NCBI GenBank assembly: GCA_965205075.1
Contig: OZ242036.1
Span: 3,196,795 to 3,260,794, forward strand
Reading direction: 5' to 3'
From: Candidatus Poribacteria bacterium
Lineage (GTDB): Bacteria; Poribacteria; WGA-4E; PCPOR2b
Length of the DNA: 64,000 nucleotides
The position numbers were made by a program, and so were the translations under genes. Under the pieces are notes generated by a model. The model had not been told where the DNA came from and did no database searches. It saw nothing but the letters and a program-made list of their open reading frames with translations. Positions 42,389 through 58,881 of the stretch are shown here, piece after piece; within the stretch, counting starts at the first letter, position 1; every line of letters begins with the position of its first letter.

Positions 42389-42744
42389 TAACGGATGAAA
42401 CGATGTCTTGAACACATCCTTCTACACCAACTCAATGAAACTGCCTATGTGAGCCTCACGATTTACGATGCACAAGGACACATCGCTCAGTTGCTATATC
42501 TCGGTCAAAAGGATGCCGGCTTCTATCACATTCTATCACAATCGTTCCCACGCTGCATATTGGGCTGGTCGTAACAAACACAATGAAAAGGTCGCTTCGG
42601 GGCTCTACTTCTACCAGATTTACGCGTCCAGTGAAGCGAGATATGGATTCCAAATCCCGACACCTCACCGGAGTTAGTTAATTGGTTAATGGGTTAATTG
42701 AAGAAATACCCAATGATGTTAGGCTTGGTAAAGAGGTTAGCATG

Positions 42745-44580
42745 AACATCCACACTAAATTAATTTTGAATTACATGGGAATCGTGCTGGTCATTTTGCT
42801 AGCGATGTATGGCTATCTGGATTATTCGTTAAAGCAGAACTTGAGTGAACGAATCACGAGCGAGCTGACAGTGCAAGCGAATCTGACGCGGGAATTTCTG
42901 CTGGAGAAACTCCCTGACACATTCAGTTACGACGTTGTGGACAGCTTTGTGGATCGGCTCGGAGCCGCTAGTAGGGTACGTCTCACATTTATTGGGTGCG
43001 ATGGAATTGTATGGGGAGATACAGAACGTGATGGACAGCGTTTACGGGAGATGGATAATCACCGGAATCGACCAGAAGTACAAGAGGCTTTGGCAGGTGG
43101 AATTGGGACGATCGACCGATATAGCGATACTGTGATGACCACGCTTCGCTACCTTGCCTTGCCAGTGATTCGTGAGGGGAAGATGATTGGTATCTGTCGG
43201 GTTGCGCTGCCTATGAGGGAGATCGATACAGCCATTGGTCAACTCAGATGGCTTTTGCTATTGGCAATCAGTGCAGGTCTTGTGTTCGCAATCTTGTTCA
43301 GCATTATCACCACCAACGTGACCACGAAGCCGATCCGAGACTTGACCCAAGCCACAAAATCGCTCGCAGTTGGCGAATTAAACTCGCGTGTCTCCGTTGC
43401 CGCGTCGGGTGAACTGGGAGAATTGTCCAATCATTTCAATCAGATGGCTAATCGGATTGAAATGCAGATCCATGAGATTTCTCGTGAGCGCAATCTAAGG
43501 GATAGCATCTTATCAAAGATGGTCGAGGGGGTGCTCTTAATTGACGCGCAGTTTGCCATCACGTATGCGAATTCGGCAGCAATCACAATGCTAGACTTTC
43601 CTGTCCACTATCAGGCACTCTCCTTGGTTGAAAGCATCCCTGACCCGGCATTGAAACACCTCCTAATGCAGGTGACGGATACAGAAAAAGCGGGATTCGC
43701 AGAAATCAATCTGATCCGAACAACCGAACGCGAGACGGAAATTATTGTCGTACCCGTCGGAGGGGAGTATCTGGTCAGTCTCCACGACGTGAGTCAGTTG
43801 AGGAAATTGGAGCGGATTCGATCAGATTTCGTCGCGAACGTCGCTCACGAAATGCGAGTTCCGTTGACTTCAATTCACGGCTATGCAGAAACGCTTCTCA
43901 ATGGTGCTTTGGACGACACCGACGCAAACGAGCGGTTTGTGGAAAAGATTTTACAGCAGTCAGCACGGCTCTCACAGTTGGTCTCAGATCTTCTGGATTT
44001 GTCTCAGCTCGAATCCGGGGAGGTAAAGCTCAAATTAAAGCCGTGTGAGATTGACGAATTTCAAGAGACCGTCTTAGCACTCTTTGAACCCGTATTTGAG
44101 GAAGCGGATTTGAGGCTTGAGTGGAGGGTGCCTAAGTATCTACCCACCGTGTTTGCCGATAAGCAACTTATCGGACAGGTATTGGCAAATTTAATTGAGA
44201 ACGCGATCAAGTATACACCAGCGGGGGGAGGGGTTACCATTTCTGCTGAAGCCAGCGAATCAGAGGTTATCGTTCATGTAAAAGATACCGGAATCGGTAT
44301 TCCTTCTGAGGCGTTGCCCCGAATTTTCGAGCGATTCTACCGGGTGGATAAGGGACGCTCGCGCGAGATGGGGGGCACAGGATTGGGACTTGCGATTGCT
44401 AAACACATTCTGCTTCAACATGGTGGAAGGATATGGGTTGACAGCACTTTGGGAGAGGGATCAGTATTTTACTTTGCCTTGCCGTTGCAAAGGAGATTCT
44501 CGGCGACGGAACAGATAGCACAACTCTCTCACATCAAGGAAGCTGAATTATTGCCCCCTTCAACAGTGGATGGGGGATAA
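42745..44580 (+). CDS. phoR: Sensor histidine kinase (TM-HAMP-PAS-HisKA-HATPase), PhoR-like
   Basis: H-box SDFVANVAHEMRVPLTSI, N-box LIENAIKYT, G-boxes DTGIGIP and GGTGLGLAI. Adjacent to phoB and the pst genes. Confidence 0.75.
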   Translation, partial: NIHTKLILNYMGIVLVILLAMYGYLDYSLKQNLSERITSELTVQANLTREFLLEKLPDTFSYDVVDSFVDRLGAASRVRLTFIGCDGIVWGDTERDGQRLREMDNHRNRPEVQEALAGGIGTIDRYSDTVMTTLRYLALPVIREGKMIGICRVALPMREIDTAIGQLRWLLLLAISAGLVFAILFSIITTNVTTKPIRDLTQATKSLAVGELNSRVSVAASGELGELSNHFNQMANRIEMQIHEISRERNLRDSILSKMVEGVLLIDAQFAITYANSAAITMLDFPVHYQALSLVESIPDPALKHLLMQVTDTEKAGFAEINLIRTTERETEIIVVPVGGEYLVSLHDVSQLRKLERIRSDFVANVAHEMRVPLTSIHGYAETLLNGALDDTDANERFVEKILQQSARLSQLVSDLLDLSQLESGEVKLKLKPCEIDEFQETVLALFEPVFEEADLRLEWRVPKYLPTVFADKQLIGQVLANLIENAIKYTPAGGGVTISAEASESEVIVHVKDTGIGIPSEALPRIFERFYRVDKGRSREMGGTGLGLAIAKHILLQHGGRIWVDSTLGEGSVFYFALPLQRRFSATEQIAQLSHIKEAELLPPSTVDGG

Positions 44581-44840
44581 AAATAATCGCTCATGTTAAG
44601 AAATCGTGCAACAGAAACCGTAGAGGCAGGTCTTGTGCCTGCCCAAAAGGGCAACCATAAGGGTTGCCCCTACAGCTCTTTTCGTATTTTGCATTTTCTT
44701 CTTACATGAGCTAAAATAATTTTTATATCTCCTTTTTACTGTGGTTGAGACACATATCGGATTCAGATGGCATCAAAACTTAGCGTTTTGCTTTGACCAT
44801 GTTTTTGCTGTCTGGATTCATAACATTTTCGAGAAGGAAG

Positions 44841-45527
44841 ATGGCATCAAAGATCCTGATTGTGGAAGATGAACCTGATATTGTTGAATTATTAATGTAC
44901 AACTTGCACCAAGCGGGCTTTAAGGCCGACGCAGTCCTTAATGGGGCGGCTGCCCTTGAACGGGTCAAAATCGAGCCGCCTGATCTCATTCTCTTGGACC
45001 TATTGCTTCCAGAGGTAGACGGCCTGGAGGTATGTCGTACCTTAAAACGCGATCCTGAGACGGCAAGCATTCCCATTATTATGCTCACGGCAAAAGGTGA
45101 AGCGATTGACCGAATTGTTGGGTTGGAGTTAGGAGCAGACGACTACATCACCAAGCCATTTAGTCCGCGGGAAGTTATGCTGAGAGTCCGCGCCGTGCTG
45201 CGTCGCGCGCCGAACGTTCCGCGCAGCAGACCTGCAAACCAAATTCAGATTGATGACTTGAAGATTGATCTGGACAGACACCAAGTATTCAGCGATGGCA
45301 GCGTTATTGATCTAACTGCCACAGAGTTCAAAATCCTTTCTCTATTTGCTCATTCCCCGGGGCGTGTCTTCACACGCAGTATTCTGATGGATGCGGTTTG
45401 GGGGCAGGAGTATTACGGCATTGAGCGCACGATGGATACCCATGTAAGTCGTTTGCGGCGTAAGTTAGGACAGTTTGGAGAGCGGATTGAGACCGTACAT
45501 GGAGTCGGCTATCGGCTTAAAGAGTAA
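44841..45527 (+). CDS. phoB: OmpR/PhoB-family response regulator
   Basis: Receiver ILIVEDEPDI...DLILLDLLLP...K, and a winged-helix C-terminus (RVFTRSILMDAVWG...VSRLRRKL). Confidence 0.85.
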   Translation: MASKILIVEDEPDIVELLMYNLHQAGFKADAVLNGAAALERVKIEPPDLILLDLLLPEVDGLEVCRTLKRDPETASIPIIMLTAKGEAIDRIVGLELGADDYITKPFSPREVMLRVRAVLRRAPNVPRSRPANQIQIDDLKIDLDRHQVFSDGSVIDLTATEFKILSLFAHSPGRVFTRSILMDAVWGQEYYGIERTMDTHVSRLRRKLGQFGERIETVHGVGYRLKE

Positions 45528-45689: not shown

Positions 45690-45894
45690 TAAAATTTTGT
45701 AACATTTCGAGACTATACTTAGGGCGTTGGTTGGGGAAATCAAGAAATTTGGGATGGAAGGCTTTTGCTGTCCATCCCAAATTTCGTTTTACCACCAAGT
45801 GAAAATGTCCCAAGTCAGACAACCCCTACGTAAGTTAATTGCCACAAAAAGTCGAAAGAAATGTCAAAATTTTGTAACATTCATAACCTATACT
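45690..45894 (+). promoter_or_regulatory. Duplicated promoter-like module (AAAATTTTGTAACATT-N7-CTATACT) at 45690-45719 and 45865-45894, flanking a 13-bp-stem hairpin plus T-run (45745-45792)
   Basis: Two about 30-nt copies with identical core, 175 bp apart. A hairpin aaatttgggatgg/ccatcccaaattt is followed by tcgtttta. Upstream of the TonB-dependent receptor gene. Confidence 0.4.
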
Positions 45895-45938
45895 GTAAGT
45901 GCACTAAAACAAACAGACGTAATCAGAACGGGAGAACG

Positions 45939-48779: not shown

Positions 48780-49010
48780 AGAATAAGAAAAACTCTCTTT
48801 ATGTTTCACACTTAATCTATGGTGGATTCTAAAAATAAATGGACACTTTCGCCTCCCGGTAGGTGCGGTTTGCAACCGCACCGAATAGGCGCAGTTAGAA
48901 ACAGCGCCTACCAAACGGTAGAACGGTAGTTTCGTTTTCCTAACCGCACCGGATTGGAGTGTCTAAGTAATTCTAAAATCTACTATAAAAAAGAAAGGAA
49001 GTTTAATTCA

Positions 49011-50345
49011 ATGAGTAGTCTTTTGTTTTTCCGGTTGTCCTCTACTCTGTGTATCTGCCTCGCTCTTCTGTTTGTAGGCTGTGGAGATGATGAAGTGGAT
49101 GACATCACTGAAACTGATGATGGTGACACTGTCACCACCGCTGAAGAACCGAGCGGCCCAAACATCCTTGAGGGGAAAATCACAGAAGATATGACCCTCA
49201 CAGCAAGCCGCGAACATATATTGCGGGGAGCCGTGTTTGTGGAAGACGGTGCCACATTGACGATTGAGCCTGGCACCCTCATTTATGGTGAGGGAGTTTC
49301 TAACGGAACTCTCATTATCGCACAAGGTGCAAAGATTATGGCTGAGGGAACGCAGAACGCACCGATTGTTTTCACCAGTGACGCGCTTGACGGTTCACGG
49401 GGCCGCGGCCAGTGGGGTGGTTTGATTATTAACGGTCGTGCACCCAGCAACCAAGGTGTCACATTTGGTGAAGGGGATACAGGTGCTTTCGGTGGGAACA
49501 ACCCCGGAGACAACAGCGGTGTCCTCAAGTATGTCCGTGTCGAATATGCAGGTATCGAGTTTAGCCCTGATAACGAGCTAAATGGTATCGCCTTCCAAGG
49601 TGTCGGTTCCGGCACGGTCGTCGATTATGTGCAGGTTCACTTGAATCAGGATGACGGTATTGAAATGTTCGGTGGTACGGTCAACATCAAACACGCGCTT
49701 GTCACGGGTGCACGTGATGACTCCTTCGACTGGACAGATGGTTGGACAGGTAAAGGACAGTTCTGGATCGCACAGCAACGTGGAGATGAGGCTGATAACG
49801 GTTTTGAAAATGACAACAGTAGCAAGAACAATGATGCAACGCCGCGGTCTGCCCCGACAATTTACAACGCCACGCTCATCGGTGATCCGCAGGGCCCCAC
49901 GAGTGACACCGGTATGCTAATTCGTGAAGGCGCAGCAGGCATATACCGCAACATCATTGTACACGGCTTTAAGAACAAAGCTGGACTTGATATTGATAAC
50001 GCCTCAACGATTGCTCAGGCAAACAGTGGTGGTCTGACCGTCCAAAACACCATTTTCTCCAACAACCAGCCGGGGAACTTCGCCGAACCGGACGAAGATT
50101 TTGATGAAGCTGCATGGGCGATGGATCCTGCGTTTAATAACCTTGAAGCGGATGCGAAATTGCGTAACCCATTCGCTCAGAGTGACCCAGATTTCCGCCC
50201 AGCCGCCGATTCCCCCGCGCTCAATGGTGCGATTCCAGTCGCCTCGCCGCCCGGCGATGGCTTTTTTGATCCTGTGAATTTCATTGGTGGAATGGGGCCT
50301 AACGATAACTGGACAGAGGGTTGGACGACAACCGCTCAAAACTAA
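49011..50345 (+). CDS. Hypothetical lipoprotein, predicted parallel beta-helix-like
   Basis: Lipobox LFVGCG. An acidic linker. Repetitive G-rich beta-helix-like segments. RBS AAAGGAAG. Confidence 0.45.
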   Translation: MSSLLFFRLSSTLCICLALLFVGCGDDEVDDITETDDGDTVTTAEEPSGPNILEGKITEDMTLTASREHILRGAVFVEDGATLTIEPGTLIYGEGVSNGTLIIAQGAKIMAEGTQNAPIVFTSDALDGSRGRGQWGGLIINGRAPSNQGVTFGEGDTGAFGGNNPGDNSGVLKYVRVEYAGIEFSPDNELNGIAFQGVGSGTVVDYVQVHLNQDDGIEMFGGTVNIKHALVTGARDDSFDWTDGWTGKGQFWIAQQRGDEADNGFENDNSSKNNDATPRSAPTIYNATLIGDPQGPTSDTGMLIREGAAGIYRNIIVHGFKNKAGLDIDNASTIAQANSGGLTVQNTIFSNNQPGNFAEPDEDFDEAAWAMDPAFNNLEADAKLRNPFAQSDPDFRPAADSPALNGAIPVASPPGDGFFDPVNFIGGMGPNDNWTEGWTTTAQN

Positions 50346-50420
50346 TCAGGATTCAAGGATGTTCAGGATTGAGATGTTCAACAATCCTGTTCAATCCTTG
50401 AACTTTATCTTATTTCACAG

Positions 50421-50921
50421 ATGAAATGGCGAATTGTATTAGGGATAATTTCCCTCATTCTGCTGATTGCATCAATCGGCTGGCACAGAATAAATGCTTG
50501 GGAGGGCAGCTTGGATTCCCCGGTTGCCCTTGGTCAAGCTGTCGTTGACGCGCTGAATCGTGGGGATATTGATGGGCTGCATCGGTTGAGAGTCAATCAA
50601 GATGAATACCTTTCATGGATTTGGCCCGCTTTTCCCGCAAGCCGTCCACCCTATAATTTTACCGCTGATTTTGCATGGTCAAATCTAAATAAGAGGTGCA
50701 TTGTCGGTGCAAATAGCGGGATTGAACAGTACGGCGGTCAAAACTTAGCCTTCGTGGACGTGGATTTTGACCGTCCAACCGAAGAATACAAAGGGTTTAA
50801 GTTGCTACGCGGAAGCGTGCTTACAGTACAAAACGCGAATGGCAAAAAAGTCGAATTGAGAATTCTTGGATCCGTTGTCAAGAAAGGAAACCATTATAAA
50901 CTTTTAAGTTATGAGGATTAG
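50421..50921 (+). CDS. Hypothetical membrane-anchored protein
   Basis: N-terminal TM IVLGIISLILLIASIGW. No recognised domain. Confidence 0.35.
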   Translation: MKWRIVLGIISLILLIASIGWHRINAWEGSLDSPVALGQAVVDALNRGDIDGLHRLRVNQDEYLSWIWPAFPASRPPYNFTADFAWSNLNKRCIVGANSGIEQYGGQNLAFVDVDFDRPTEEYKGFKLLRGSVLTVQNANGKKVELRILGSVVKKGNHYKLLSYED

Positions 50922-50927
50922 ACAACT

Positions 50928-51944
50928 ATGAGTGGTTACATTTCTAGTTATAAAGCAAATAAACACATAGACAAGAAAAAGAGGGCAAAAAGTCGAGAGC
51001 GGCTGGTAACGAACTCCTCCCCACCATCTTCCAGCGCCGGACAAGCACCTACGCCCCGTGTGAGTCGGGCATCCGTCCATGAAGGTAAGGGACATTCTAT
51101 ACCAAGTCGAAGTCAAGCTGTCCCCAAGCAAGCAGGTAAAAGAGGGGGAGCATTTTTTGTCTCTGTTGTGGTTCATCTTGCCGGGGCGTTGATTGCTACA
51201 GCATACGTTGTACAGGAAAAGATCGTCAATGAGGAATTAGTACAAGGAGTACTCATGAAACCTGCCCCCAAACCGACGCTCAAGCGCAGATCTCGTCCAC
51301 GCATTGCCAAAACGACCACGCCTCGAAAGACAATAGACACACCCAAACCGCAACTTCAACAAATCGCTACAACCAGTGCCCGACTCCCAATAGGCAGCGA
51401 AAGGTTTACAATTCCAGCGAGCAGTCTTTCTGTTGGATCGATCGGTGAACCGAGCACCCAACTCGGCAGAGGTCTGTTCGCCGGAGCCCGTCAGGCGCAA
51501 GTCGTTGCTGTAACACCTCAGTTTGAAGCCCCAAAATTTATGAGTACATCAATAACCAGTAAGATTGACACAGGGAACAGTTTTGCACAAATGGACTTTA
51601 ATCCGGAGGCGATGGACCCGATTACAGCAGAGCTGAGAGATGCGACACAGTCCTTTACGGAGTTTCTCCAGTCAATCCGCGAAAAAATCAAACGCTCTCA
51701 ACGTTATCCACGATCGGTCCGGAATTTAGCTGACGGCAGTGAAGCACAGGTGCAATTCACAATTCGGCGCGATGGAAGTCTGCTTGACGCTAAAGTTGTC
51801 GCTTCCTCCGGCTCCAAATCACTTGACGCCGCCGCTTTGGCTGTTGTGCGGGATGCTGCGCCCTATCCCTCTTTTCCCGAGGGTCAAGAGGGATCAACGC
51901 TTCGTTTAGAAATCCCAATCTCTTTTCAATTAAAAACGAATTAA
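50928..51944 (+). CDS. tonB: Energy transducer TonB-family protein
   Basis: N-terminal TM, a Pro/Lys-rich spacer, and a C-terminal TonB domain (QVQFTIRRDGSLLDAKVVASSGSKSLDAAALAVVRDAAPYPSFP). Confidence 0.7.
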   Translation: MSGYISSYKANKHIDKKKRAKSRERLVTNSSPPSSSAGQAPTPRVSRASVHEGKGHSIPSRSQAVPKQAGKRGGAFFVSVVVHLAGALIATAYVVQEKIVNEELVQGVLMKPAPKPTLKRRSRPRIAKTTTPRKTIDTPKPQLQQIATTSARLPIGSERFTIPASSLSVGSIGEPSTQLGRGLFAGARQAQVVAVTPQFEAPKFMSTSITSKIDTGNSFAQMDFNPEAMDPITAELRDATQSFTEFLQSIREKIKRSQRYPRSVRNLADGSEAQVQFTIRRDGSLLDAKVVASSGSKSLDAAALAVVRDAAPYPSFPEGQEGSTLRLEIPISFQLKTN

Positions 51945-52054: not shown

Positions 52055-52086
52055 TTGTGACAAATTTGTGACATTTATGGTATATT
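52055..52086 (+). promoter_or_regulatory. Pho-box-like direct repeats (TTGTGACAAAT TTGTGACATTT, 11-bp periodicity) abutting a -10 TATATT
   Basis: Two TGTGACA heptads spaced 11 bp apart, ending 4 nt before tatatt at 52081-52086. Located 70 nt upstream of the porin gene. A PhoB-activated promoter typically has a pho box in place of the -35. Confidence 0.45.
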
Positions 52087-52154
52087 TTATTTAAGTAGTG
52101 TTAAGTGATTAACCAGAATGTCATTGCGCAAAAATGGTATCGAATGGAGGTTCA

Positions 52155-53189
52155 ATGAAAAGATATTTTCTACGCGGCATTTTACCTTTAATGTGTCTAT
52201 TGTTAAGCAGTCCCGCTGTTCTGTGGGGAGATGCGGGTAAGATTAGCGGTTACTTTTTTGGCGATTATTACTATGTGCTGAAGTCTCACAACGCTGAACT
52301 TGAGAGCCGGAATGGATTTCAGTATCGACGCGTCTATTTCAATTACGACAAGGATCTGTCAGAAGCATTTTCGATGCGGTTTCGGTTCGAGATGAATGGC
52401 GCATCATTCCCCACAGATCGTCAGAAAATCGAACCGTATCTCAAAAATGGCTATCTGAGGTGGAAGAAACCCGAGTGGCGGACCAATCTTTATTTAGGGA
52501 TATCTAGCAACCCGACTTGGAAGAATGTTGAAAGGGTATGGGGCTATCGTTCTGTTGCAGAAACGGCGCTTCACATGCACAAAATGGGAAATGGCTCCGA
52601 CTTTGGTATAGCTCTACAAGGCGATGTCGATAAATCAAAAAAGGTTAGCTACCATTTGATGTTCGCAAATGGCACGAGCACAAGTGCAGAAATTGATGGC
52701 AATAAGAAGATCGCCTTTTCACTCGCAGCCAAGCCCGTTACAGGCTTTATCGTTGAAGGATATGCCGATTTGGAAAATGCAGTGGATCGGGGCAGATGGT
52801 ACACATTACAAGGTTTTCTAGGCTATCAACGGGAGCAGCTTCGGGTCGGTATTCAGCTTGCCAATCAGACGCGGGAACAGGAAGACAAGGACGACCTTAA
52901 CATTTTAGTGAGCTCGGTATTCGGTGCGGCGCAATTGCTCGAAAAGAAGGTATGGGCTTTTGCTCGGTTTGACAGGCTGTTCGATCCAAGTCCTGCTGCG
53001 AATAAAGGTTATATCCATTTTGATGGTACAGCAGCGCCAAATATGATTCTTGTCGGGTTGGATTGGAAACCCATTGAGGCGTTAAATATCATGCCCAATC
53101 TTGTCTTCGTCTTTTACGATGAACCGGATAATGGCCCCAAACCTGACGCGACGATTATGCCGCGTTTGACAGCATTCTTCAGGTTCTAG
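52155..53189 (+). CDS. Outer-membrane porin, probably phosphate-selective (OprO/OprP-like)
   Basis: Signal peptide. Beta-barrel pattern. C-terminal ...AFFRF. Pho-box promoter and Pho-cluster context. Confidence 0.55.
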   Translation: MKRYFLRGILPLMCLLLSSPAVLWGDAGKISGYFFGDYYYVLKSHNAELESRNGFQYRRVYFNYDKDLSEAFSMRFRFEMNGASFPTDRQKIEPYLKNGYLRWKKPEWRTNLYLGISSNPTWKNVERVWGYRSVAETALHMHKMGNGSDFGIALQGDVDKSKKVSYHLMFANGTSTSAEIDGNKKIAFSLAAKPVTGFIVEGYADLENAVDRGRWYTLQGFLGYQREQLRVGIQLANQTREQEDKDDLNILVSSVFGAAQLLEKKVWAFARFDRLFDPSPAANKGYIHFDGTAAPNMILVGLDWKPIEALNIMPNLVFVFYDEPDNGPKPDATIMPRLTAFFRF

Positions 53190-53304: not shown

Positions 53305-54435
53305 ATGCAATCTAACTTAGAAGAAAACATGCAGCAGGACATCGATCTGATCCGCAGCAATGTAATTGAGATGGGTAAATTAGTTGAGCAAGCGTTAGAA
53401 ACCTGTCTGAATGCGATTCAGCATAATGATCGACAATCGGCTTATGTTGTGATCTTAAGAGACCGGCATATCGATGAGTTAGAGGAGACTCTAGAATCAC
53501 TTTGCCAGAGGTTCCTGATTAAGCACCTACCCGTTGCGAGTCAAATGCGCTTTGTTTATTCGGTTATCAAAATCAACACCGAATTAGAGCGTGTTGGCGA
53601 TTATGCGAAAGCGATGGCTCGGCGATTTTTGACTGTCAGTGACTTGGGCGCGCAAGCCTCCCATCCCAAGCTCATCGACATTGCCAACCTTGCAATTCCG
53701 TTCCTCCGTAACGCCTTGCAAGCCTTCGCTGAAGGTGACGCTGAATTGGCAAAAGCAACGAGGGAAAAGGAAAAAGAACGGGCGATAGATAATTTACGCT
53801 ACGAAATTCACAGTGATTTAATCCAATTACACATCAAGGACGAATTGCCATCAGAGGCACTAGTTCCGCTGGTGACGATTGTCAGTTGCTTGGAGCGTGT
53901 AGCAAATCAGGCGAGCAATATTTCCGAGGAAATCTTGTATATGTGTACCGGCGAAGATTTAAGACACGACTACCAACAGGTGTTGCGTGTACTTTTCGTC
54001 GCCGAGCACGATGCGTGCCGAGGACAGATGGCAGCCGGTATCGGCAGTTCCCTCGAATCGCATAGGATACTGTTTAGTAGTGCCGGCGTGGCGTCCCAAC
54101 CACTGGATCCGAAAACCGTGCAATTCATGGAGGAAAAAGGCATTGATATTTCTGGTCAAAGGTCCAAATATTTAAGCCAAATCTTAGATCTCAAAGATTA
54201 CGCAATCATTGTATCGCTCAGTGAGGAAGCAGACAAAGCTCTCCCGTCGTTGCCATCGCGACCAGTGCGTATCAATTGGGAAGTGCCGGATCCGTCAAAG
54301 CTTGAAGGAACCGAAGAGGAAGTTCAAGCTGCATACCAAACAACATTTCAATTTTTAGAAACACACATCCGAGAATTGGTTCAAGCAATTCTCGGTGATA
54401 ATATTGAGAAGGAGAAGGAAACTGATGTTCAATAA
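53305..54435 (+). CDS. phoU: PhoU-domain protein fused to a C-terminal LMW-phosphatase/ArsC-like domain that lacks the catalytic cysteines
   Basis: N-terminal tandem PhoU repeats (IDELEETLESLCQRF..., ELERVGDYAKAMARRF). C-terminal VLFVAEHDACRGQMAAG aligns to the LMW-PTP/ArsC P-loop V-x-F-x-C-x-G-N-x-C-R-S with the nucleophile Cys replaced by Ala. DPKTVQFMEEKGIDISGQRSK matches ArsC, and the downstream Cys pair is replaced (SLSEEADKA). Confidence 0.7.
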   Translation: MQSNLEENMQQDIDLIRSNVIEMGKLVEQALETCLNAIQHNDRQSAYVVILRDRHIDELEETLESLCQRFLIKHLPVASQMRFVYSVIKINTELERVGDYAKAMARRFLTVSDLGAQASHPKLIDIANLAIPFLRNALQAFAEGDAELAKATREKEKERAIDNLRYEIHSDLIQLHIKDELPSEALVPLVTIVSCLERVANQASNISEEILYMCTGEDLRHDYQQVLRVLFVAEHDACRGQMAAGIGSSLESHRILFSSAGVASQPLDPKTVQFMEEKGIDISGQRSKYLSQILDLKDYAIIVSLSEEADKALPSLPSRPVRINWEVPDPSKLEGTEEEVQAAYQTTFQFLETHIRELVQAILGDNIEKEKETDVQ

Positions 54436-55309
54436 AGTGTTGTGCGCTATCGTTGCGGTAGCGTTCTGTCTGTTTTCAAACGGCTGCACAAAGAAAGATG
54501 AGGCCAGTGAAAAGGTCGTGATTCAGAACGCGGGTTCTGATACGATGGTCAATCTCGCACAGGCATGGGCAGAGGCGTATGCTACCGTCGAGCCCAATGT
54601 GTCCCTTGAAGTTTCCGGTGGTGGTTCGGGAACCGGCATCGCTGCGCTGACCAGCGGCACGGTAGACATCGCGAATTGTAGCCGTCAAATGACGCTGGCA
54701 GAAAACGAACGGGTGAAACAGAACACAGGCGAAGCACCGAAAGAATTCATCGTTGGATACGATGCACTCGCTGTTTACGTCCACAAAGATAATCCGTTGG
54801 CTGAAATCTCCATAGATCAACTTGCTGCTATCTACGGAGAAGGCGGAGACATAACTGAATGGTCTCAACTCGGCATTGATAATAGCGAGTGTGCTAATGA
54901 CGAGATTATTCGGGTGAGTAGACAATCGAATTCCGGGACATTCGTCTATTTCCGCTCGGCAGTTCTCGGCAAGAAGCGCGACTATAAGCTCGGCTCAAGA
55001 GATCTACACGGTTCCAAGGATGTCGTCGAACTCGTCGCACATACACCGTGTGCAATTGGCTATAGCGGCATGGGGTACGCCACAGAAGAGGTGAAGATGC
55101 TCAAAATTGCTAAGAATGCAGGTGATACCGCCTATGGGCCCACCGCCCAAGGTGTGCTTGACGGTACGTATCCAATCGCAAGACCCCTGTATATGTATTC
55201 GCTCGGAACGCCAGAACCGCAGGAACAGACTTACCTAGATTGGATCTTTTCGCCAACGGGACAGGGGATTGTTGAGAAAACAGGTTACGTGCCCGTCGGA
55301 CAGAAATGA
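54425..55309 (+). CDS. pstS: Phosphate ABC transporter substrate-binding protein
   Basis: Lipobox FSNGC. PstS-family motifs (SGGGSGTG, TVDIANCSR). Confidence 0.8.
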   Translation: MFNKVLCAIVAVAFCLFSNGCTKKDEASEKVVIQNAGSDTMVNLAQAWAEAYATVEPNVSLEVSGGGSGTGIAALTSGTVDIANCSRQMTLAENERVKQNTGEAPKEFIVGYDALAVYVHKDNPLAEISIDQLAAIYGEGGDITEWSQLGIDNSECANDEIIRVSRQSNSGTFVYFRSAVLGKKRDYKLGSRDLHGSKDVVELVAHTPCAIGYSGMGYATEEVKMLKIAKNAGDTAYGPTAQGVLDGTYPIARPLYMYSLGTPEPQEQTYLDWIFSPTGQGIVEKTGYVPVGQK

Positions 55310-55367: not shown

Positions 55368-56276
55368 ATGCGAACAATCGTGAACATTTTTCACCAACTC
55401 GAACGTTGGTGCGAGCCAGTTATCGAAGCAATTATTCGCCTATGCGGTATCAGCGCAATTATCTTCGTCTTCGGCATATTCTTCTTCGTCTTCCGCGAAG
55501 GGATGGGCTTTTTCTTCGGCGGATTGGACATCGTTGAGTTTCTCACAAGCCCCGAATGGTATCCTACTTCTCTTAGCAACAAACGTTACGGCGTATTGGC
55601 ATTAATCGCAGGTACGTTTAGCGTGACAGCCTTGGCGATGGTTATTGCTGTGCCGTTTGGGCTTGGAGCAGCTATCTTCGTGTCTGAATTTTGCGGACCG
55701 AAATTGAAGGAAACCCTCAAAATCGTCATTGAGTTGCTCGCGGCGATTCCATCCGTTGTGTGGGGTTTCATCGGCTTAACGGTGATGAACGCGCTGATTA
55801 TCAAGATATTCAACGTCCCAATCGGTTTGACGATGCTAAACGGCGGTATTATTCTAGCACTGATGAGCGTCCCTATCATTGTCTCCATAGGTGAGGACGC
55901 ACTCAAAGCAGTTCCGGATTCGTATCGAGAAGCGGCTGAAGCACTCGGTGCAACGCGATGGCAGGTGATTTATCGTGTGTTGTTGCCTACAGCAAAGAAT
56001 GGATTGCTTGCAGCGGTACTGTTGGGCGTTGGTCGTGCAGTGGGTGAAACCATGGCGGTGTTGATGACAACGGGCCATGCGGTAAACATGCCAAATAGCC
56101 CTTTCGATTCTGTCCGTACGCTGACCGCCACGATCGCAGCCGAATTGGGTGAGGCAGCGGTGGGCAGTGATCATTATCGTGTGTTGTTTATTATCGGCGT
56201 TTTGTTATTTACAATTACATTTATCGTAAACTTTGTTACCGACCTTGTGATTAAAGGCATCCGCGAAAAGGCGTAG
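55368..56276 (+). CDS. pstC: Phosphate ABC transporter permease PstC
   Basis: Six-TM permease with the EAA-like loop (EAAEALGATRWQ). Confidence 0.85.
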   Translation: MRTIVNIFHQLERWCEPVIEAIIRLCGISAIIFVFGIFFFVFREGMGFFFGGLDIVEFLTSPEWYPTSLSNKRYGVLALIAGTFSVTALAMVIAVPFGLGAAIFVSEFCGPKLKETLKIVIELLAAIPSVVWGFIGLTVMNALIIKIFNVPIGLTMLNGGIILALMSVPIIVSIGEDALKAVPDSYREAAEALGATRWQVIYRVLLPTAKNGLLAAVLLGVGRAVGETMAVLMTTGHAVNMPNSPFDSVRTLTATIAAELGEAAVGSDHYRVLFIIGVLLFTITFIVNFVTDLVIKGIREKA

Positions 56277-56295: not shown

Positions 56296-57237
56296 ATGGC
56301 AACAGATATAAATTCCTCCCCCACCTCTCCAGAAGTCGTCGCTCCTCACTTGATGTTCACCGCCACCGCACAGAGCCGTAAAAAACAGCTGATGGAGAAT
56401 ATTGCACGGGGCGTCTTTTTCGTAATGACGCTGTTAATGATCCTGCCGCTTATCCTCATCGTTGTATATCTCTTTGTCAAGGCAGCACCGGTCCTGTCTC
56501 CAGAGTTCTTTTTCACGAATCCTGCAAAGGGGATGAGAGCTGGCGGTATATGGGCACCGCTGCTTGGAACGATTTATATTGTGATAATTTCGCTGCTTGT
56601 TTCCGCGCCAATCGGTGTTTTAGCTGCGGTCTATCTAAACGAGTACGCCCGTGAAAGCTGGTTTACCCGAATCATCAACCTTGCAGTCGTCAATCTCGCC
56701 GGTGTGCCGAGCATCGTTCACGCCCTTTTTGGGGTGGGTGCCTTTGTGTACTTTGCAAAAATGGGACGCTCAGTTTTAGCCGCTTCCCTCACATTGGCGA
56801 TTATGACGCTGCCGGTTATCATTGCAAGCACGAAGGAAGCACTCGGCGCTGTTCCGATGGCGTTCCGGGAAGCGTGTTGGAATACCGGCGCGACACGGTG
56901 GCAGACAATTCGTGGCATTGTTTTGCCAAATTCAATTAGTGGTATACTGACCGGGGTAATTTTACAGGTGTCACGAGCGGCGGGTGAGACTGCGCCAATT
57001 ATGTTTACCGGGGCAGTATTTTTTAAGGCTATCTCTGAAGGGGATGTTCTCGCCTACGGTCTACTCGATCGGTTTATGGCGCTCTCAATGCACCTGTACC
57101 AACTTTCGACGCAAGTACCGGGTGTTCCCGAAGCCTTAGAGTACGGTACAGCCGTTGTGCTATTGGGTGCTGTGCTGATGGTGAACGCGGTGGCGATTGT
57201 GCTGCGTGTGTACCTGCGATCTCGCAAGCGGTGGTAG
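56296..57237 (+). CDS. pstA: Phosphate ABC transporter permease PstA
   Basis: Permease with EAA motif (REACWNTGATRWQ). Confidence 0.85.
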   Translation: MATDINSSPTSPEVVAPHLMFTATAQSRKKQLMENIARGVFFVMTLLMILPLILIVVYLFVKAAPVLSPEFFFTNPAKGMRAGGIWAPLLGTIYIVIISLLVSAPIGVLAAVYLNEYARESWFTRIINLAVVNLAGVPSIVHALFGVGAFVYFAKMGRSVLAASLTLAIMTLPVIIASTKEALGAVPMAFREACWNTGATRWQTIRGIVLPNSISGILTGVILQVSRAAGETAPIMFTGAVFFKAISEGDVLAYGLLDRFMALSMHLYQLSTQVPGVPEALEYGTAVVLLGAVLMVNAVAIVLRVYLRSRKRW

Positions 57238-57334: not shown

Positions 57335-58108
57335 TTGGCACAGATAGCTAACTTTACAAAGAAAATTGAAATCGCCGACCTTACAGTCCGATACGGAGAG
57401 ATGGAAGCCCTTAAAGGGATTTCCTTCGATGTATATGAGAATGAAATACTTGGCGTTATCGGTCCGGCACAATCCGGCAAAACAACACTGTTGAAAACTA
57501 TCAATCGTACGATTGAATTGGAGCCAAGTGCACAGGTCAGCGGTTTGGTAAAAATTGACGGCACAGATGTACAAAGTATCAAAAATGTCAACCAACTGCG
57601 TAGACGAATTGGGATGGTATTTCCGCTGCCTGTCGGTTTACCCTTGTCCATCTACGATAACGTTGCGTTCGCGCCTCGTACTGCGGGGATCCGCAAACGG
57701 AGCGAGTTAGACGAACTTGTTGAGCGTTGTCTAAAACAGGCGGCACTTTGGGATGAGGTTAAAGATCGCCTCAATAGTCTCGGTACAAAGTTGTCGGGAG
57801 GACAGCAGCAGCGTTTGACTATTGCCCGTGCACTCTCACACCAACCCGAAATTCTCTGTCTCGACGAATTTTCGATTGCTGTGGATCCGGTGACAACCAT
57901 GCGCATTGAGGATATCCTCAAAGAATTGCGATCCCAAGTCACGATCATCCTCGTTACCAATTTGGTTCAACAGGCACGTCGTTTGGCAGACCGCACCGCG
58001 TTTATATTTGAAAGCGAGCTAATCGAAATCGACGACAACGATGTTATTTTCTCCGATTCACCGGCGAATAGACTAACCTATGACTATGTGAATGGAACCT
58101 TCGGATGA
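57335..58108 (+). CDS. pstB: Phosphate ABC transporter ATP-binding protein PstB1 (degenerate Q-loop and H-loop, intact LSGGQ)
   Basis: Walker A GPAQSGKTT. Q-loop MVFPLP (Q to P). Signature LSGGQQQRL. Walker B ILCLDEF. H-loop VTNLVQQA (H to N). Confidence 0.85.
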   Translation: MAQIANFTKKIEIADLTVRYGEMEALKGISFDVYENEILGVIGPAQSGKTTLLKTINRTIELEPSAQVSGLVKIDGTDVQSIKNVNQLRRRIGMVFPLPVGLPLSIYDNVAFAPRTAGIRKRSELDELVERCLKQAALWDEVKDRLNSLGTKLSGGQQQRLTIARALSHQPEILCLDEFSIAVDPVTTMRIEDILKELRSQVTIILVTNLVQQARRLADRTAFIFESELIEIDDNDVIFSDSPANRLTYDYVNGTFG

Positions 58109-58881
58109 GCGCAGACAAAAGACACAGCATCGAAACCCGTCAACTTAACCTATGGTACGGCGACTTTCAGGCACTTATCAATGTGAGCATGAAGATTGTT
58201 GACGGTTTGATAACCGGGCTCATTGGTCCCTCCGGCTGTGGCAAAACCACGTTGCTGCGCTGTTTCAACCGCGTGAACGAACGCTACGGCAATGTCACGA
58301 CGACCGGCGAGGTTGAAATCCTCGGTAAAAATATTTACGATGCGGACGTCTCACTGCCGGAACTACGCAAAAACGTCGGTATGGTATTTCAGCGTCCGAA
58401 TCCCCTACCAATCTCCGTTTACGAAAATATTATTTTTGGTTTGCGGATCCACTCCGAACAGCGTATGCGGAAGAAGTCAGCAACTGACGATATCGTTGAA
58501 GCAGCGTTAAGGGAGGTCTTCCTGTGGGATGATCTGAAGGATCAACTAAAGGTGAAGGCAACCACCCTGCAGCTCGAACAGCAGCAAAAGTTGTGCATAG
58601 CCCGACTGCTGCCGTTGAAACCACGGGTGATTTTGATGGACGAACCGTGTTCTGCCCTTGACGCCAAAGGCACGCGGACCGTCGAAGAATTAATGTTGGA
58701 ACTCGCAGGGCAGTACACCATTCTGATTGTCACGCACAATATGGCGCAGGCGCGCCGTGTGAGCGATGAATGTATCTTCATGCTGCTCGGTGAGATTGTT
58801 GAGCACAGCCGCACTGAAGATCTATTCCTGACGCCCCAGAACGAAAAAACGGCGGATTATATCGAAGGTCGATACGGATAA
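58105..58881 (+). CDS. pstB: Phosphate ABC transporter ATP-binding protein PstB2 (canonical NBD motifs but degenerate signature LQLEQ)
   Basis: Walker A GPSGCGKTT. Q-loop MVFQRP. Signature LQLEQQQKL instead of LSGGQ. Walker B ILMDEP. H-loop VTHNM. Confidence 0.85.
   Translation: MSADKRHSIETRQLNLWYGDFQALINVSMKIVDGLITGLIGPSGCGKTTLLRCFNRVNERYGNVTTTGEVEILGKNIYDADVSLPELRKNVGMVFQRPNPLPISVYENIIFGLRIHSEQRMRKKSATDDIVEAALREVFLWDDLKDQLKVKATTLQLEQQQKLCIARLLPLKPRVILMDEPCSALDAKGTRTVEELMLELAGQYTILIVTHNMAQARRVSDECIFMLLGEIVEHSRTEDLFLTPQNEKTADYIEGRYG

What the first reader, a model, noticed from the sequence alone, without database searches (positions are those of the whole stretch)
53305..54435. PhoU fused to a cysteine-less LMW phosphatase/ArsC-like domain (pseudo-phosphatase) inside the pst operon
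The C-terminal about 140 aa aligns to the LMW-PTP/thioredoxin-coupled arsenate-reductase fold. It carries VLFVAEHDACRGQMAAG versus the consensus VLFVC-G-N-x-C-R-S-x-M-A-E, and DPKTVQFMEEKGIDISGQRSK versus ArsC DPxAVxxMxExGIDIS. The nucleophilic Cys and both downstream resolving Cys positions are replaced by Ala, Ser and Ala. The phosphate or arsenate-binding P-loop Arg is retained. This suggests an oxyanion-binding sensor domain appended to the PhoU negative regulator. The gene start overlaps pstS.
Basis: partly seen in the sequence, partly recalled or inferred. Interest (0 to 1): 0.6.

Follow-up and report, generated by a model that had tools for sequence, protein, structure and literature searches.

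The report
PhoU fused to dead ArsC domain
This gene is a real and widely conserved fusion of the phosphate-uptake regulator PhoU to an arsenate-reductase-like domain that has lost its catalytic cysteines, and it almost always heads a distinct phosphate-importer operon whose two ATPase subunits share one crippled ATP site; what the dead domain does has not been tested.

Summary
Window 53305-54435 (+) encodes a 376-aa protein with a full PhoU (aa 8-218) joined to an LMW-PTP/thioredoxin-type ArsC fold (aa 229-358). The ArsC catalytic positions Cys10, Cys82 and Cys89 are Ala233, Ser306 and Ala312. Arg239 and Asp329 are kept.

Two corrections apply. One P-loop cysteine (Cys238) remains. It is the 3' end of the gene, not its start, that overlaps pstS, by 11 nt.

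The fusion is not an artefact. Hundreds of homologues in at least eight phyla share the architecture and the linker.

Family-wide, the nucleophile position is Asp (about 85%) and almost never Cys. The P-loop Arg is missing in 27-56% of sampled members. A general oxyanion-sensor role through the canonical pocket is therefore not supported, though it stays possible in this Arg-retaining clade.

Rare members (P0198; unfused L045) keep a fully intact ArsC behind a canonical pstB. This points to an enzyme-to-pseudoenzyme history.

The fusion heads a conserved operon, fusion-pstS-pstC-pstA-pstB1-pstB2. PstB1 has lost its Q-loop Gln and H-loop His. PstB2 has lost its LSGGQ signature. Together these give one degenerate ATP site.

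I found no paper describing the fusion. I rate it a new variant of a known kind, of moderate interest.

The parts
53305..54435 (+). phoU-pseudoArsC fusion gene (376 aa plus stop)
   Evidence: ORF and Shine-Dalgarno sequence. Pfam and NCBIfam domain hits. Homologues are the same length.
53326..53958 (+). PhoU module, aa 8-218 (two three-helix PhoU repeats)
   Evidence: TIGR02135 scores 145.4 bits, above the 130.25 cut-off. The AF2 model is all-helical with pLDDT mostly above 90. Foldseek matches PhoU structures 2i0m, 4q25 and 1t72 with TMt about 0.9.
53947..53988 (+). Interdomain linker, aa 215-228 (TGEDLRHDYQQVLR). Thr215, Gly216 and His221 are invariant in the family. It is flexible in the model.
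   Evidence: Invariant columns in alignment A1. pLDDT is below 50 for aa 221-225 and pTM is 0.59. The same linker occurs in the Cys-intact member P0198.
53989..54378 (+). LMW-PTP / thioredoxin-type ArsC fold, aa 229-358, catalytically dead
   Evidence: PF01451 scores 40.3 bits, above the 23.2 cut-off. 1jl3 matches at E 1.2e-14 by sequence and at TMt 0.88, rmsd 1.8 A by fold.
54001..54024 (+). Degenerate P-loop AEHDACRG, aa 233-240, versus ArsC CTGNSCRS. Ala233 replaces the nucleophile. Cys238 and Arg239 are kept.
   Evidence: Alignment to 1jl3. Family column counts.
54220..54240 (+). Former redox loop: Ser306 (ArsC Cys82) to Ala312 (ArsC Cys89)
   Evidence: HMMER alignment. Codons read.
54289..54291 (+). 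Asp329, the equivalent of the general-acid Asp105 (DPS motif), retained
   Evidence: Asp in 47 of 59 non-redundant members.
54425..55309 (+). pstS (lipoprotein-type substrate-binding protein). Its start overlaps the end of the fusion gene by 11 nt.
   Evidence: TIGR02136 scores 232 bits, above the 206.6 cut-off. Sequence read.
55368..56276 (+). pstC
   Evidence: TIGR02138 scores 287 bits, above the 196 cut-off.
56296..57237 (+). pstA
   Evidence: TIGR00974 scores 257 bits, above the 193 cut-off.
57335..58108 (+). pstB1. Walker A, Walker B and LSGGQ are intact. The Q-loop Gln is replaced (VFPLPVGL) and the H-loop His is absent (VTNLVQQA).
   Evidence: Motif table across 35 operons. TIGR00972 scores 279 bits, below the 343 cut-off.
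58105..58881 (+). pstB2. Walker A, Q-loop, Walker B and H-loop are canonical. The signature is degenerate (LQLEQQQK instead of LSGGQQQR).
   Evidence: TIGR00972 scores 325 bits, below the 343 cut-off. It is 36.6% identical to PstB1.
52134..53189 (+). Upstream 351-aa gene, possibly the first gene of the transcription unit. I infer an outer-membrane porin from its signal-peptide-like N-terminus and C-terminal ...FFRF. It has no family hit.
   Evidence: No Pfam or NCBIfam hit. Porin_O_P genes occupy this position in L006 and L013. The best promoter-like site is at 52057-52086.
42682..45527 (+). Context: PhoR/PnpS-like histidine kinase (42682-44580) and PhoB-like response regulator (44793-45527), 8 kb upstream
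   Evidence: NCBIfam: PnpS 382 bits, PhoR 302 bits, PhoB 255 bits. These are the best PhoR/PhoB-related matches (WalK tops the kinase list at 386.7 bits), and all are below their equivalog cut-offs.

Best explanation
The gene encodes the PhoU-type regulatory subunit of a distinct, widespread subtype of the Pst phosphate importer. Its N-terminal part is an ordinary PhoU. In characterised systems PhoU contacts PstB and PhoR and restrains phosphate uptake.

Its C-terminal part descends from a thioredoxin-coupled arsenate reductase that was first encoded next to phoU and then fused to it. In almost all lineages it has since lost its chemistry. It has no nucleophile (Ala here, Asp in most members) and no resolving cysteines.

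I think it now works as a non-catalytic accessory module, held on a flexible linker. I propose that it docks on, or allosterically tunes, the asymmetric PstB1-PstB2 ATPase. That ATPase has one consensus and one degenerate ATP site, and the fusion is inherited together with it.

In this clade the pocket keeps Arg239, Asp329 and a P-loop of normal length. Binding of phosphate or arsenate as a feedback signal remains a possible add-on, but it cannot be the function common to the family.

Shown: the fusion is real, it is conserved, catalysis by the ArsC/LMW-PTP mechanism is impossible, the operon coupling holds, and intact relatives exist. Inferred: the docking or allosteric role and any ligand.
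For: - Both domains are confirmed by profile, sequence and fold.
- The best 120 homologous clusters (of 887 matched) all have PF01895 plus PF01451 at about 370 aa. The fusion is found in Verrucomicrobiota, Acidobacteriota, Myxococcota, Desulfobacterota, KSB1, Calditrichota, Eisenbacteria and Planctomycetota.
- The nucleophile position is never Cys in the top 120 (Asp 70, Ala 44, Thr 7). It is Asp in 50 of 59 non-redundant members and in 34 of 40 scorable members of an independent metagenome sample, again never Cys.
- The domain is under constraint. Its mean pairwise identity is 43% against 51% for the PhoU part, and the two are correlated at r = 0.81.
- Operon coupling: every locus with enough sequence shows fusion-pstS-pstC-pstA-pstB1-pstB2. 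The complementary motif losses in PstB1 and PstB2 are the same across phyla.
- Reciprocal test: starting from PstB1 in metagenome contigs, 35 of 36 loci with at least 4.3 kb upstream carry the fusion.
- Ancestral-like states exist. L045 has pstB-phoU followed by a separate intact arsC (CTHNSARS, Cys82, Cys89). P0198 is a PhoU-ArsC fusion with all catalytic residues and the family linker, sitting behind a canonical pstB.
- The linker is predicted to be flexible.
Against: - No contact between the dead domain and PstB1/PstB2 has been tested. The AF2 interdomain geometry is undefined (pTM 0.59).
- Some PstB1/PstB2 operons lack the fusion (L097 and its relatives, L109, L112). The pairing is therefore not obligate.
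- Within clades the P-loop is strongly conserved in clade-specific versions ([DA]E[HRY]DACRG here, DETNGCLS elsewhere). This hints that the pocket itself matters, which favours a ligand.
- The loops lining the old active site (SAG, GIDIS, W..DPS) are among the best conserved parts.
Confidence: 0.5

Rival explanations
1. Oxyanion sensor. The dead P-loop still binds cytoplasmic phosphate or arsenate. Occupancy makes PhoU shut the importer. This would be a trans-inhibition device like the substrate-binding regulatory domains of MetN and ModC.
For: - Arg239, Asp329 and the P-loop length are retained.
- Arg is present in 115 of 121 close relatives, and the loop is highly conserved in this subfamily.
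- From my own knowledge, not tested here: Cys-to-Ala/Ser/Asp variants of Cys-based phosphatases generally keep the P-loop fold and still bind substrate or anions. PTP1B C215D is an example (Romsicki et al. 2003 JBC 278:29009, seen only as a reference).
- The physiology fits: arsenate and phosphate enter through Pst, and the ancestor bound arsenate.
Against: - Arg is lost in 16 of 59 non-redundant members and in 23 of 41 independently sampled operons, including a whole clade with a conserved Leu. The domain and the operon persist in these lineages.
- The P-loop is not more conserved than the rest of the domain family-wide.
- Glu234 and Asp236 (and Asp at the nucleophile position in most members) add negative charge at the rim. 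Ser17 is replaced by Gly and Gly12 by His.
Confidence: 0.28
2. Evolutionary relic. The domain is a decaying remnant of a once-useful tethered arsenate reductase. It is kept only as an inert spacer or a folding aid.
For: - The catalytic residues are lost in different ways in different lineages.
- The domain evolves somewhat faster than the PhoU part.
- One PhoU of this type (L097) ends exactly at the linker and lacks the domain.
Against: - The domain is retained at full length, without truncations, across at least eight phyla and hundreds of clusters.
- Mean pairwise identity is 43%, with invariant core and loop residues.
- The linker is conserved.
Confidence: 0.1
3. Thiol redox switch. The retained Cys238, with other family-conserved cysteines (the ArsC Cys82 equivalent, Cys207 and Cys214 of the PhoU C-terminal helix), senses oxidation.
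For: Cys15 is conserved in 119 of 121 close members and the Cys82 equivalent in 105 of 121. Cys207 is Cys in 50 of 59 non-redundant members.
Against: In the window protein both partner positions are Ser (Ser306, Ser207), and only Cys238 and Cys214 remain. The Cys82 equivalent is Cys in only 20 of 59 non-redundant members.
Confidence: 0.05
4. Residual enzyme or artefact. Either the domain is still a phosphatase or reductase that uses another nucleophile, or the fusion is an assembly or frameshift error.
For: Asp at the nucleophile position in most relatives could in principle act in catalysis. The window protein has Ala there.
Against: - Ala233 cannot be a nucleophile, and all three ArsC cysteines are absent.
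- The ArsC equivalog score is 74 against a cut-off of 174.
- Identical architecture in many independent assemblies excludes an artefact.
Confidence: 0.03

Closest known systems
PhoU, the phosphate signalling complex protein (E. coli; structures 4q25, 2i0m, 1t72)
   Same: The N-terminal 218 aa pass the PhoU equivalog model and superpose on solved PhoU structures with TMt about 0.9. The gene is encoded with pstSCAB, and a PhoR/PhoB-like pair lies nearby.
   Different: It carries an extra 150-aa domain. It is the first gene of the pst operon rather than the last. The second metal motif reads ERVANQ instead of ERVADQ. It is partnered with two different PstB proteins.
Thioredoxin-coupled arsenate reductase ArsC of the LMW-PTP fold (B. 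subtilis 1jl3, S. aureus pI258 1ljl)
   Same: The fold matches (TMt 0.88, rmsd 1.8 A, 31% identity). The P-loop length, Arg16, Cys15, Asp105 and the SAG, GIDIS and DPS loops are shared.
   Different: Cys10, Cys82 and Cys89 are Ala, Ser and Ala. Gly12, Asn13 and Ser17 are His, Asp and Gly. The score is far below the equivalog cut-off. It cannot run the ArsC disulfide cascade.
Pseudophosphatases such as eukaryotic STYX (own knowledge)
   Same: A phosphatase fold that has lost the catalytic Cys is retained as a non-catalytic regulatory module.
   Different: This is a bacterial LMW-PTP/ArsC lineage, fused to a transporter regulator. Binding of any phospho-ligand is untested.
Substrate-binding regulatory domains of the ABC importers MetNI and ModBC, which give trans-inhibition (own knowledge)
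   Same: They offer a possible analogy: a cytoplasmic domain that reads substrate level and stops the ATPase.
   Different: Those domains are fused to the ATPase itself and have a different fold. No ligand is shown here.
Tandem pstB1/pstB2 of Firmicutes (E. faecalis, PMC12096839; B. subtilis PstBA/PstBB, PMC11466899)
   Same: Two adjacent pstB paralogues sit in one pst operon.
   Different: [quoted passage not shown] Here they are 37% identical, with complementary motif losses that map to one ATP site.

Membership tests
PhoU (TIGR02135 / PF01895) | Two PhoU repeats scoring above the curated equivalog cut-off | tested here: met
   145.4 bits against a cut-off of 130.25, over aa 8-218. Pfam finds two stretches.
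PhoU (TIGR02135 / PF01895) | Six-helix (two three-helix bundle) fold | tested here: met
   The AF2 model has helices H4-215. Foldseek TMt is 0.89-0.92 to 4q25, 2i0m and 1t72.
PhoU (TIGR02135 / PF01895) | Conserved E/D-x-x-x-D metal-binding motif in each repeat | tested here: inconclusive
   The first motif, ELERVGD, is intact. The second is LERVANQ (Asn for Asp) in this clade, against FERVADQ in the family consensus.
PhoU (TIGR02135 / PF01895) | Encoded with pstSCAB | tested here: met
   The arrangement is conserved in about 80 loci.
PhoU (TIGR02135 / PF01895) | Binds PstB and PhoR and represses Pi uptake or signalling | not testable with these tools
   This needs two-hybrid, pull-down or genetic experiments.
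LMW-PTP superfamily (PF01451 LMWPc) | Profile score above the gathering threshold, and the four-stranded alpha/beta fold | tested here: met
   40.3 bits against 23.2. Foldseek matches ArsC, Wzb and YwlE structures.
LMW-PTP superfamily (PF01451 LMWPc) | Catalytic C-X5-R-(S/T) P-loop | tested here: not met
   The loop is A-EHDAC-R-G: the nucleophile is Ala233 and Ser/Thr is replaced by Gly240.
LMW-PTP superfamily (PF01451 LMWPc) | General-acid Asp on the DP loop | tested here: met
   Asp329-Pro-Ser aligns to Asp105-Pro.
Thioredoxin-coupled ArsC (TIGR02691) | Equivalog score | tested here: not met
   74.3 bits against a cut-off of 174.3.
Thioredoxin-coupled ArsC (TIGR02691) | Cys10-Cys82-Cys89 redox relay | tested here: not met
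   The three positions are Ala233, Ser306 and Ala312.
Pseudoenzyme (pseudophosphatase) | The enzyme fold is retained, the essential catalytic residue is absent, and the domain is under purifying selection | tested here: met
   Fold. Nucleophile absent family-wide. Mean pairwise identity 43% across phyla.
Pseudoenzyme (pseudophosphatase) | Non-catalytic binding of a ligand or partner | not testable with these tools
   This needs binding assays or a complex structure.
Heterodimeric ABC ATPase with one degenerate site (applies to PstB1/PstB2) | Complementary loss of the Q-loop and H-loop in one subunit and of the signature in the other | tested here: met
   PstB1 has VFPLPVGL and VTNLVQQA. PstB2 has LQLEQQQK. 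This holds in 35 PstB1 and 29 PstB2 sequences.
Heterodimeric ABC ATPase with one degenerate site (applies to PstB1/PstB2) | Only one site hydrolyses ATP | not testable with these tools
   This needs ATPase assays on site mutants.

The most novel reading that the evidence does not exclude
This is the regulator of a previously undescribed, phylogenetically broad type of Pst importer. In it an ex-arsenate-reductase domain on PhoU reads cytoplasmic phosphate or arsenate, or otherwise gates the transporter through the degenerate PstB1 site. If true, it would be a natural, genetically separable example of how a PhoU protein senses its signal, which is not known for canonical PhoU.
Probability: 0.25. 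Interest if true: 0.8.

Novelty: new variant of a known kind. Interest (0 to 1): 0.55.

Why it matters
How PhoU perceives phosphate status and passes it to PstB and PhoR is still unresolved; PMC12976172 notes that the signal sensed by PhoR is unclear. A PhoU carrying an extra domain derived from an oxyanion-binding enzyme gives a concrete handle, because that domain can be deleted, mutated or tested for ligands on its own.

The fusion is always paired with an ATPase heterodimer in which one ATP site is degenerate. The family also spans a series from intact enzyme to dead domain. That makes it a clean case of pseudoenzyme evolution in a bacterial transporter regulator.

Current annotation simply calls these proteins PhoU and the two ATPases PstB. 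This hides a distinct system that is common in Verrucomicrobiota, Acidobacteriota, Myxococcota, Desulfobacterota and sponge symbionts.

Tried and rejected
- Assembly chimera or frameshift: rejected, because the same architecture occurs in many independent assemblies.
- Longer ORF from GTG 53200: rejected on homologue N-termini and the Shine-Dalgarno sequence.
- Active enzyme: rejected on residues and on the equivalog score.
- Redox switch: unlikely here, because the partner cysteines are Ser.
- Conserved upstream partner gene: none found. Upstream genes vary (porin O/P, DUF47, unrelated enzymes). The window's porin-like gene has no homologue in the other loci and no family hit even at E = 5.
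- Pho-box-like direct repeats upstream: none found. The promoter and terminator scan gave nothing decisive.
- Literature: no paper contains both PhoU and LMWPc, and none contains PhoU, arsenate reductase and domain architecture. Other searches returned only unrelated papers. The library covers open-access papers only.
The organism is inferred only from a 90%-identity cluster member deposited under the sponge Geodia barretti.
Full report
**What is there.** Window 53305-54435 (+) is a clean 376-codon ORF behind a GGAGGGG ribosome-binding site.
- Pfam finds two PhoU repeats (107 bits) and an LMWPc domain over aa 229-358 (40.3 bits, threshold 23.2).
- NCBIfam places aa 8-218 above the PhoU equivalog cut-off (145.4 against 130.25). 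It matches aa 230-357 to thioredoxin-type ArsC at E 1e-20, but far below that cut-off (74 against 174).
- Against solved structures the C-terminal part is closest to B. subtilis ArsC 1jl3 (E 1.2e-14).
- An AlphaFold2 model built on 31 family members has mean pLDDT 86.6. The helical PhoU part and the alpha/beta domain are both confident. The linker is poorly defined (aa 221-225 below 50) and pTM is 0.59.
- Foldseek matches the N-terminal part to PhoU structures (TMt about 0.9) and the C-terminal part to ArsC 1jl3 (TMt 0.88, rmsd 1.8 A).

**Active-site bookkeeping.** On the 1jl3 alignment, ArsC Cys10, Cys82 and Cys89 are Ala233, Ser306 and Ala312. Arg16 is Arg239 and Asp105 is Asp329 (codons verified). 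Two details are not.
- The P-loop AEHDACRG still contains Cys238, the counterpart of ArsC Cys15. The domain is not cysteine-less.
- The gene's 3' end overlaps pstS. The probable pstS start is ATG 54425, which gives a lipoprotein-like signal peptide, so the overlap is 11 nt.

Gly12, Asn13 and Ser17 of the canonical loop are also replaced, by His, Asp and Gly.

**Not an artefact, and not rare.**
- The full-length search found 887 clusters. The best 120 (51-92% identity) all have PhoU plus LMWPc at about 370 aa. Where named, they are called simply PhoU.
- The exact protein is on record in a 6.66-Mb contig. A member of a neighbouring 90%-identity cluster was deposited under the sponge Geodia barretti. 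The window is therefore probably from a sponge symbiont.
- One-genome-per-species scanning found the fusion in MAGs of Verrucomicrobiota, Acidobacteriota, Myxococcota, Desulfobacterota, KSB1, Calditrichota, Eisenbacteria and, in very degenerate form, Planctomycetota.

**The dead site is a family trait, but the Arg is not.**
- In the top 120 relatives the nucleophile column is Asp 70, Ala 44, Thr 7 and never Cys. Ala is the state of the window's own clade.
- In a 70%-non-redundant set of 59 the column is Asp 50, Ser 3, Ala 2, Gly 2, Glu 1 and Cys 1. Arg16 is kept in 43, Cys15 in 49, the Cys82 equivalent in only 20 and Asp105 in 47.
- I sampled operons independently through PstB1 rather than through the fusion. 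Forty-one fusions were recovered and the nucleophile position could be scored in 40: Asp 34, Gly 4, Ser 2, never Cys. Arg is present in 18 of the 41. Eighteen have Leu, including a clade with a conserved DETNGCLS loop.
- Family-wide the P-loop is no better conserved than the rest of the domain (0.61 against 0.57). The domain as a whole is constrained: mean pairwise identity is 43% against 51% for the PhoU part.

The domain is thus kept by selection. Whatever all members share cannot depend on the canonical Cys or Arg. This weakens the general oxyanion-sensor reading. It remains open for Arg-retaining clades such as this one, where Arg is present in 115 of 121 and the loop is nearly fixed.

Asp at the thiolate position fits preservation of P-loop architecture without redox sensitivity. 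This rests on my own knowledge of the PTP1B C215D work, whose reference I saw only.

**Where it came from.**
- An exhaustive search with the C-terminal domain alone found 368 cluster representatives at E up to 1e-10.
- Among the best 150, those with PhoU-fusion geometry (about 360-380 aa, domain at about 225-365) have non-Cys loops, with two exceptions.
- One exception, P0198, has every ArsC catalytic residue (LCIGNSVRS, TLCDE, QECP, PDP) together with the family-specific linker (NICEEVIYLATGQQIKH). It sits directly behind a canonical pstB.
- In an Anaerolineaceae MAG (L045), a canonical phoU is followed by a separate, fully intact arsC between pstB and pstS.
- L028 keeps the nucleophile but not the resolving cysteines.

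The simplest history is an arsC next to phoU, then an active fusion, then loss of chemistry in most lineages. A stand-alone Asp-type protein also exists (P0263).

**The operon it belongs to.**
- In the window the order is: porin-like gene, fusion, pstS, pstC, pstA, pstB1, pstB2. There is no phoU after pstB.
- Every species-representative locus with enough sequence has fusion-pstS-pstC-pstA-pstB1-pstB2. The Planctomycetota loci place pstS first.
- The two ATPases are 37% identical. Both fall below the PstB equivalog cut-off (279 and 325 against 343 bits).
- Across all loci PstB1 keeps Walker A, Walker B and LSGGQ. It has Pro for the Q-loop Gln (VFPLPVGL) and no H-loop His (VTNLVQQA). PstB2 is canonical except for a signature LQLEQQQK.
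- In an ABC dimer each ATP lies between the Walker A, Q-loop and H-loop side of one subunit and the signature of the other. All three defects therefore fall on one composite site. The other site stays consensus. This is an inference from established ABC architecture.
- Reciprocally, 35 of 36 metagenome loci found through PstB1 that have at least 4.3 kb upstream carry the fusion.
- The exceptions are L097 and its relatives, and L109 and L112. In L097 a PhoU that ends exactly at the family linker lies downstream with a third PstB. L109 and L112 have no fusion upstream of pstS.
- Some genomes also have a second, canonical pstSCAB-phoU next door (L024, L025, L029).
- Tandem pstB genes are known in Firmicutes, but there both copies keep identical catalytic motifs (PMC12096839).

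**Wider context in the window.** A PhoR/PnpS-like kinase and a PhoB-like regulator lie 8 kb upstream (42682-45527). They are followed by a TonB-dependent receptor, two proteins with no family hit and a TonB-like protein. Genes upstream of the fusion are not conserved between lineages.

**How it most likely works.** The PhoU part should do what PhoU does: associate with the PstB dimer and relay or limit transport. The added domain cannot catalyse.

My best reading, with confidence about 0.5, is a non-catalytic accessory module on a flexible tether. It would dock on, or allosterically tune, the asymmetric PstB1-PstB2 pair with which it co-occurs.

The main rival, at about 0.28, is that in Arg-retaining clades it still binds phosphate or arsenate and provides feedback inhibition. 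A relic, a redox switch, a residual enzyme and an artefact are each unlikely, for the reasons given with them.

None of the functional steps is demonstrated. The shown facts are the architecture, the loss of catalytic residues, conservation, the operon coupling and the existence of intact relatives.

**Novelty.** I found no paper on this fusion or on complementary degenerate PstB pairs in the searchable open-access library. Databases recognise the two Pfam domains automatically but name the protein PhoU. It is a new variant of known kinds (PhoU regulator, ArsC fold, ABC pair with a degenerate site), not a new category.

Noticed in passing
window 57335-58881: Two tandem, overlapping pstB genes are only 37% identical and carry complementary motif losses. 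PstB1 lacks the Q-loop Gln and the H-loop His. PstB2 lacks the LSGGQ signature. Together this predicts one degenerate and one consensus ATP site. The pattern is conserved across phyla wherever the fusion occurs.
   Followed up: yes
window 42682-45527: A PhoR/PnpS-like histidine kinase and a PhoB-like response regulator lie 8 kb upstream of the pst operon. Both score just below the NCBIfam equivalog cut-offs.
   Followed up: partly
window 45861-51944: Between the two-component system and the pst operon lie a TonB-dependent receptor (45861-48779), a 463-aa protein with no family hit and a signal-peptide-like N-terminus (48954-50345), a 166-aa protein with no family hit, and a TonB C-terminal-domain protein (50928-51944). 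They may form a phosphate-scavenging uptake set in the same island.
   Followed up: partly
window 52134-53189: A 351-aa protein directly upstream of the fusion has a hydrophobic N-terminus and a C-terminal ...FFRF typical of outer-membrane barrels. It has no Pfam or NCBIfam hit even at E = 5. In L006 and L013 a Porin_O_P gene sits at the same position.
   Followed up: partly
L045 850-1984 (Anaerolineaceae MAG): A canonical phoU is followed, in a different frame, by a separate 142-aa arsC with all catalytic residues. The pair lies between pstB and pstS. This looks like the unfused ancestral arrangement.
   Followed up: partly
L161 2201-4077 (GCA_016205125.1, protein P0198): A PhoU-ArsC fusion keeps the intact C-X5-R-S loop, Cys82, Cys89 and Asp105 together with the family linker. 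It is encoded behind a canonical pstB. It may be an active tethered arsenate reductase.
   Followed up: partly
L097 6349-14154 (metagenome contig Ga0209543_1000915): A variant operon reads pstS-pstC-pstA, an unidentified 250-aa ORF, pstB1-pstB2, an unidentified 283-aa ORF, a third pstB, and a 217-aa PhoU. The PhoU ends exactly at the family linker and has no ArsC-like domain.
   Followed up: partly
protein P0263 (144 aa): A stand-alone ArsC-like protein has Asp at the nucleophile position (VLFLDTDNSSRS). Asp-type dead domains therefore also exist outside the PhoU fusion.
   Followed up: no
window 53905-53925 and 53893-53910: Compared with its family, the window protein has Ser for a nearly invariant Cys in the last PhoU helix (NISEE against NICEE). 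It also has Asn for Asp in the second PhoU metal motif (ERVANQ against ERVADQ).
   Followed up: no
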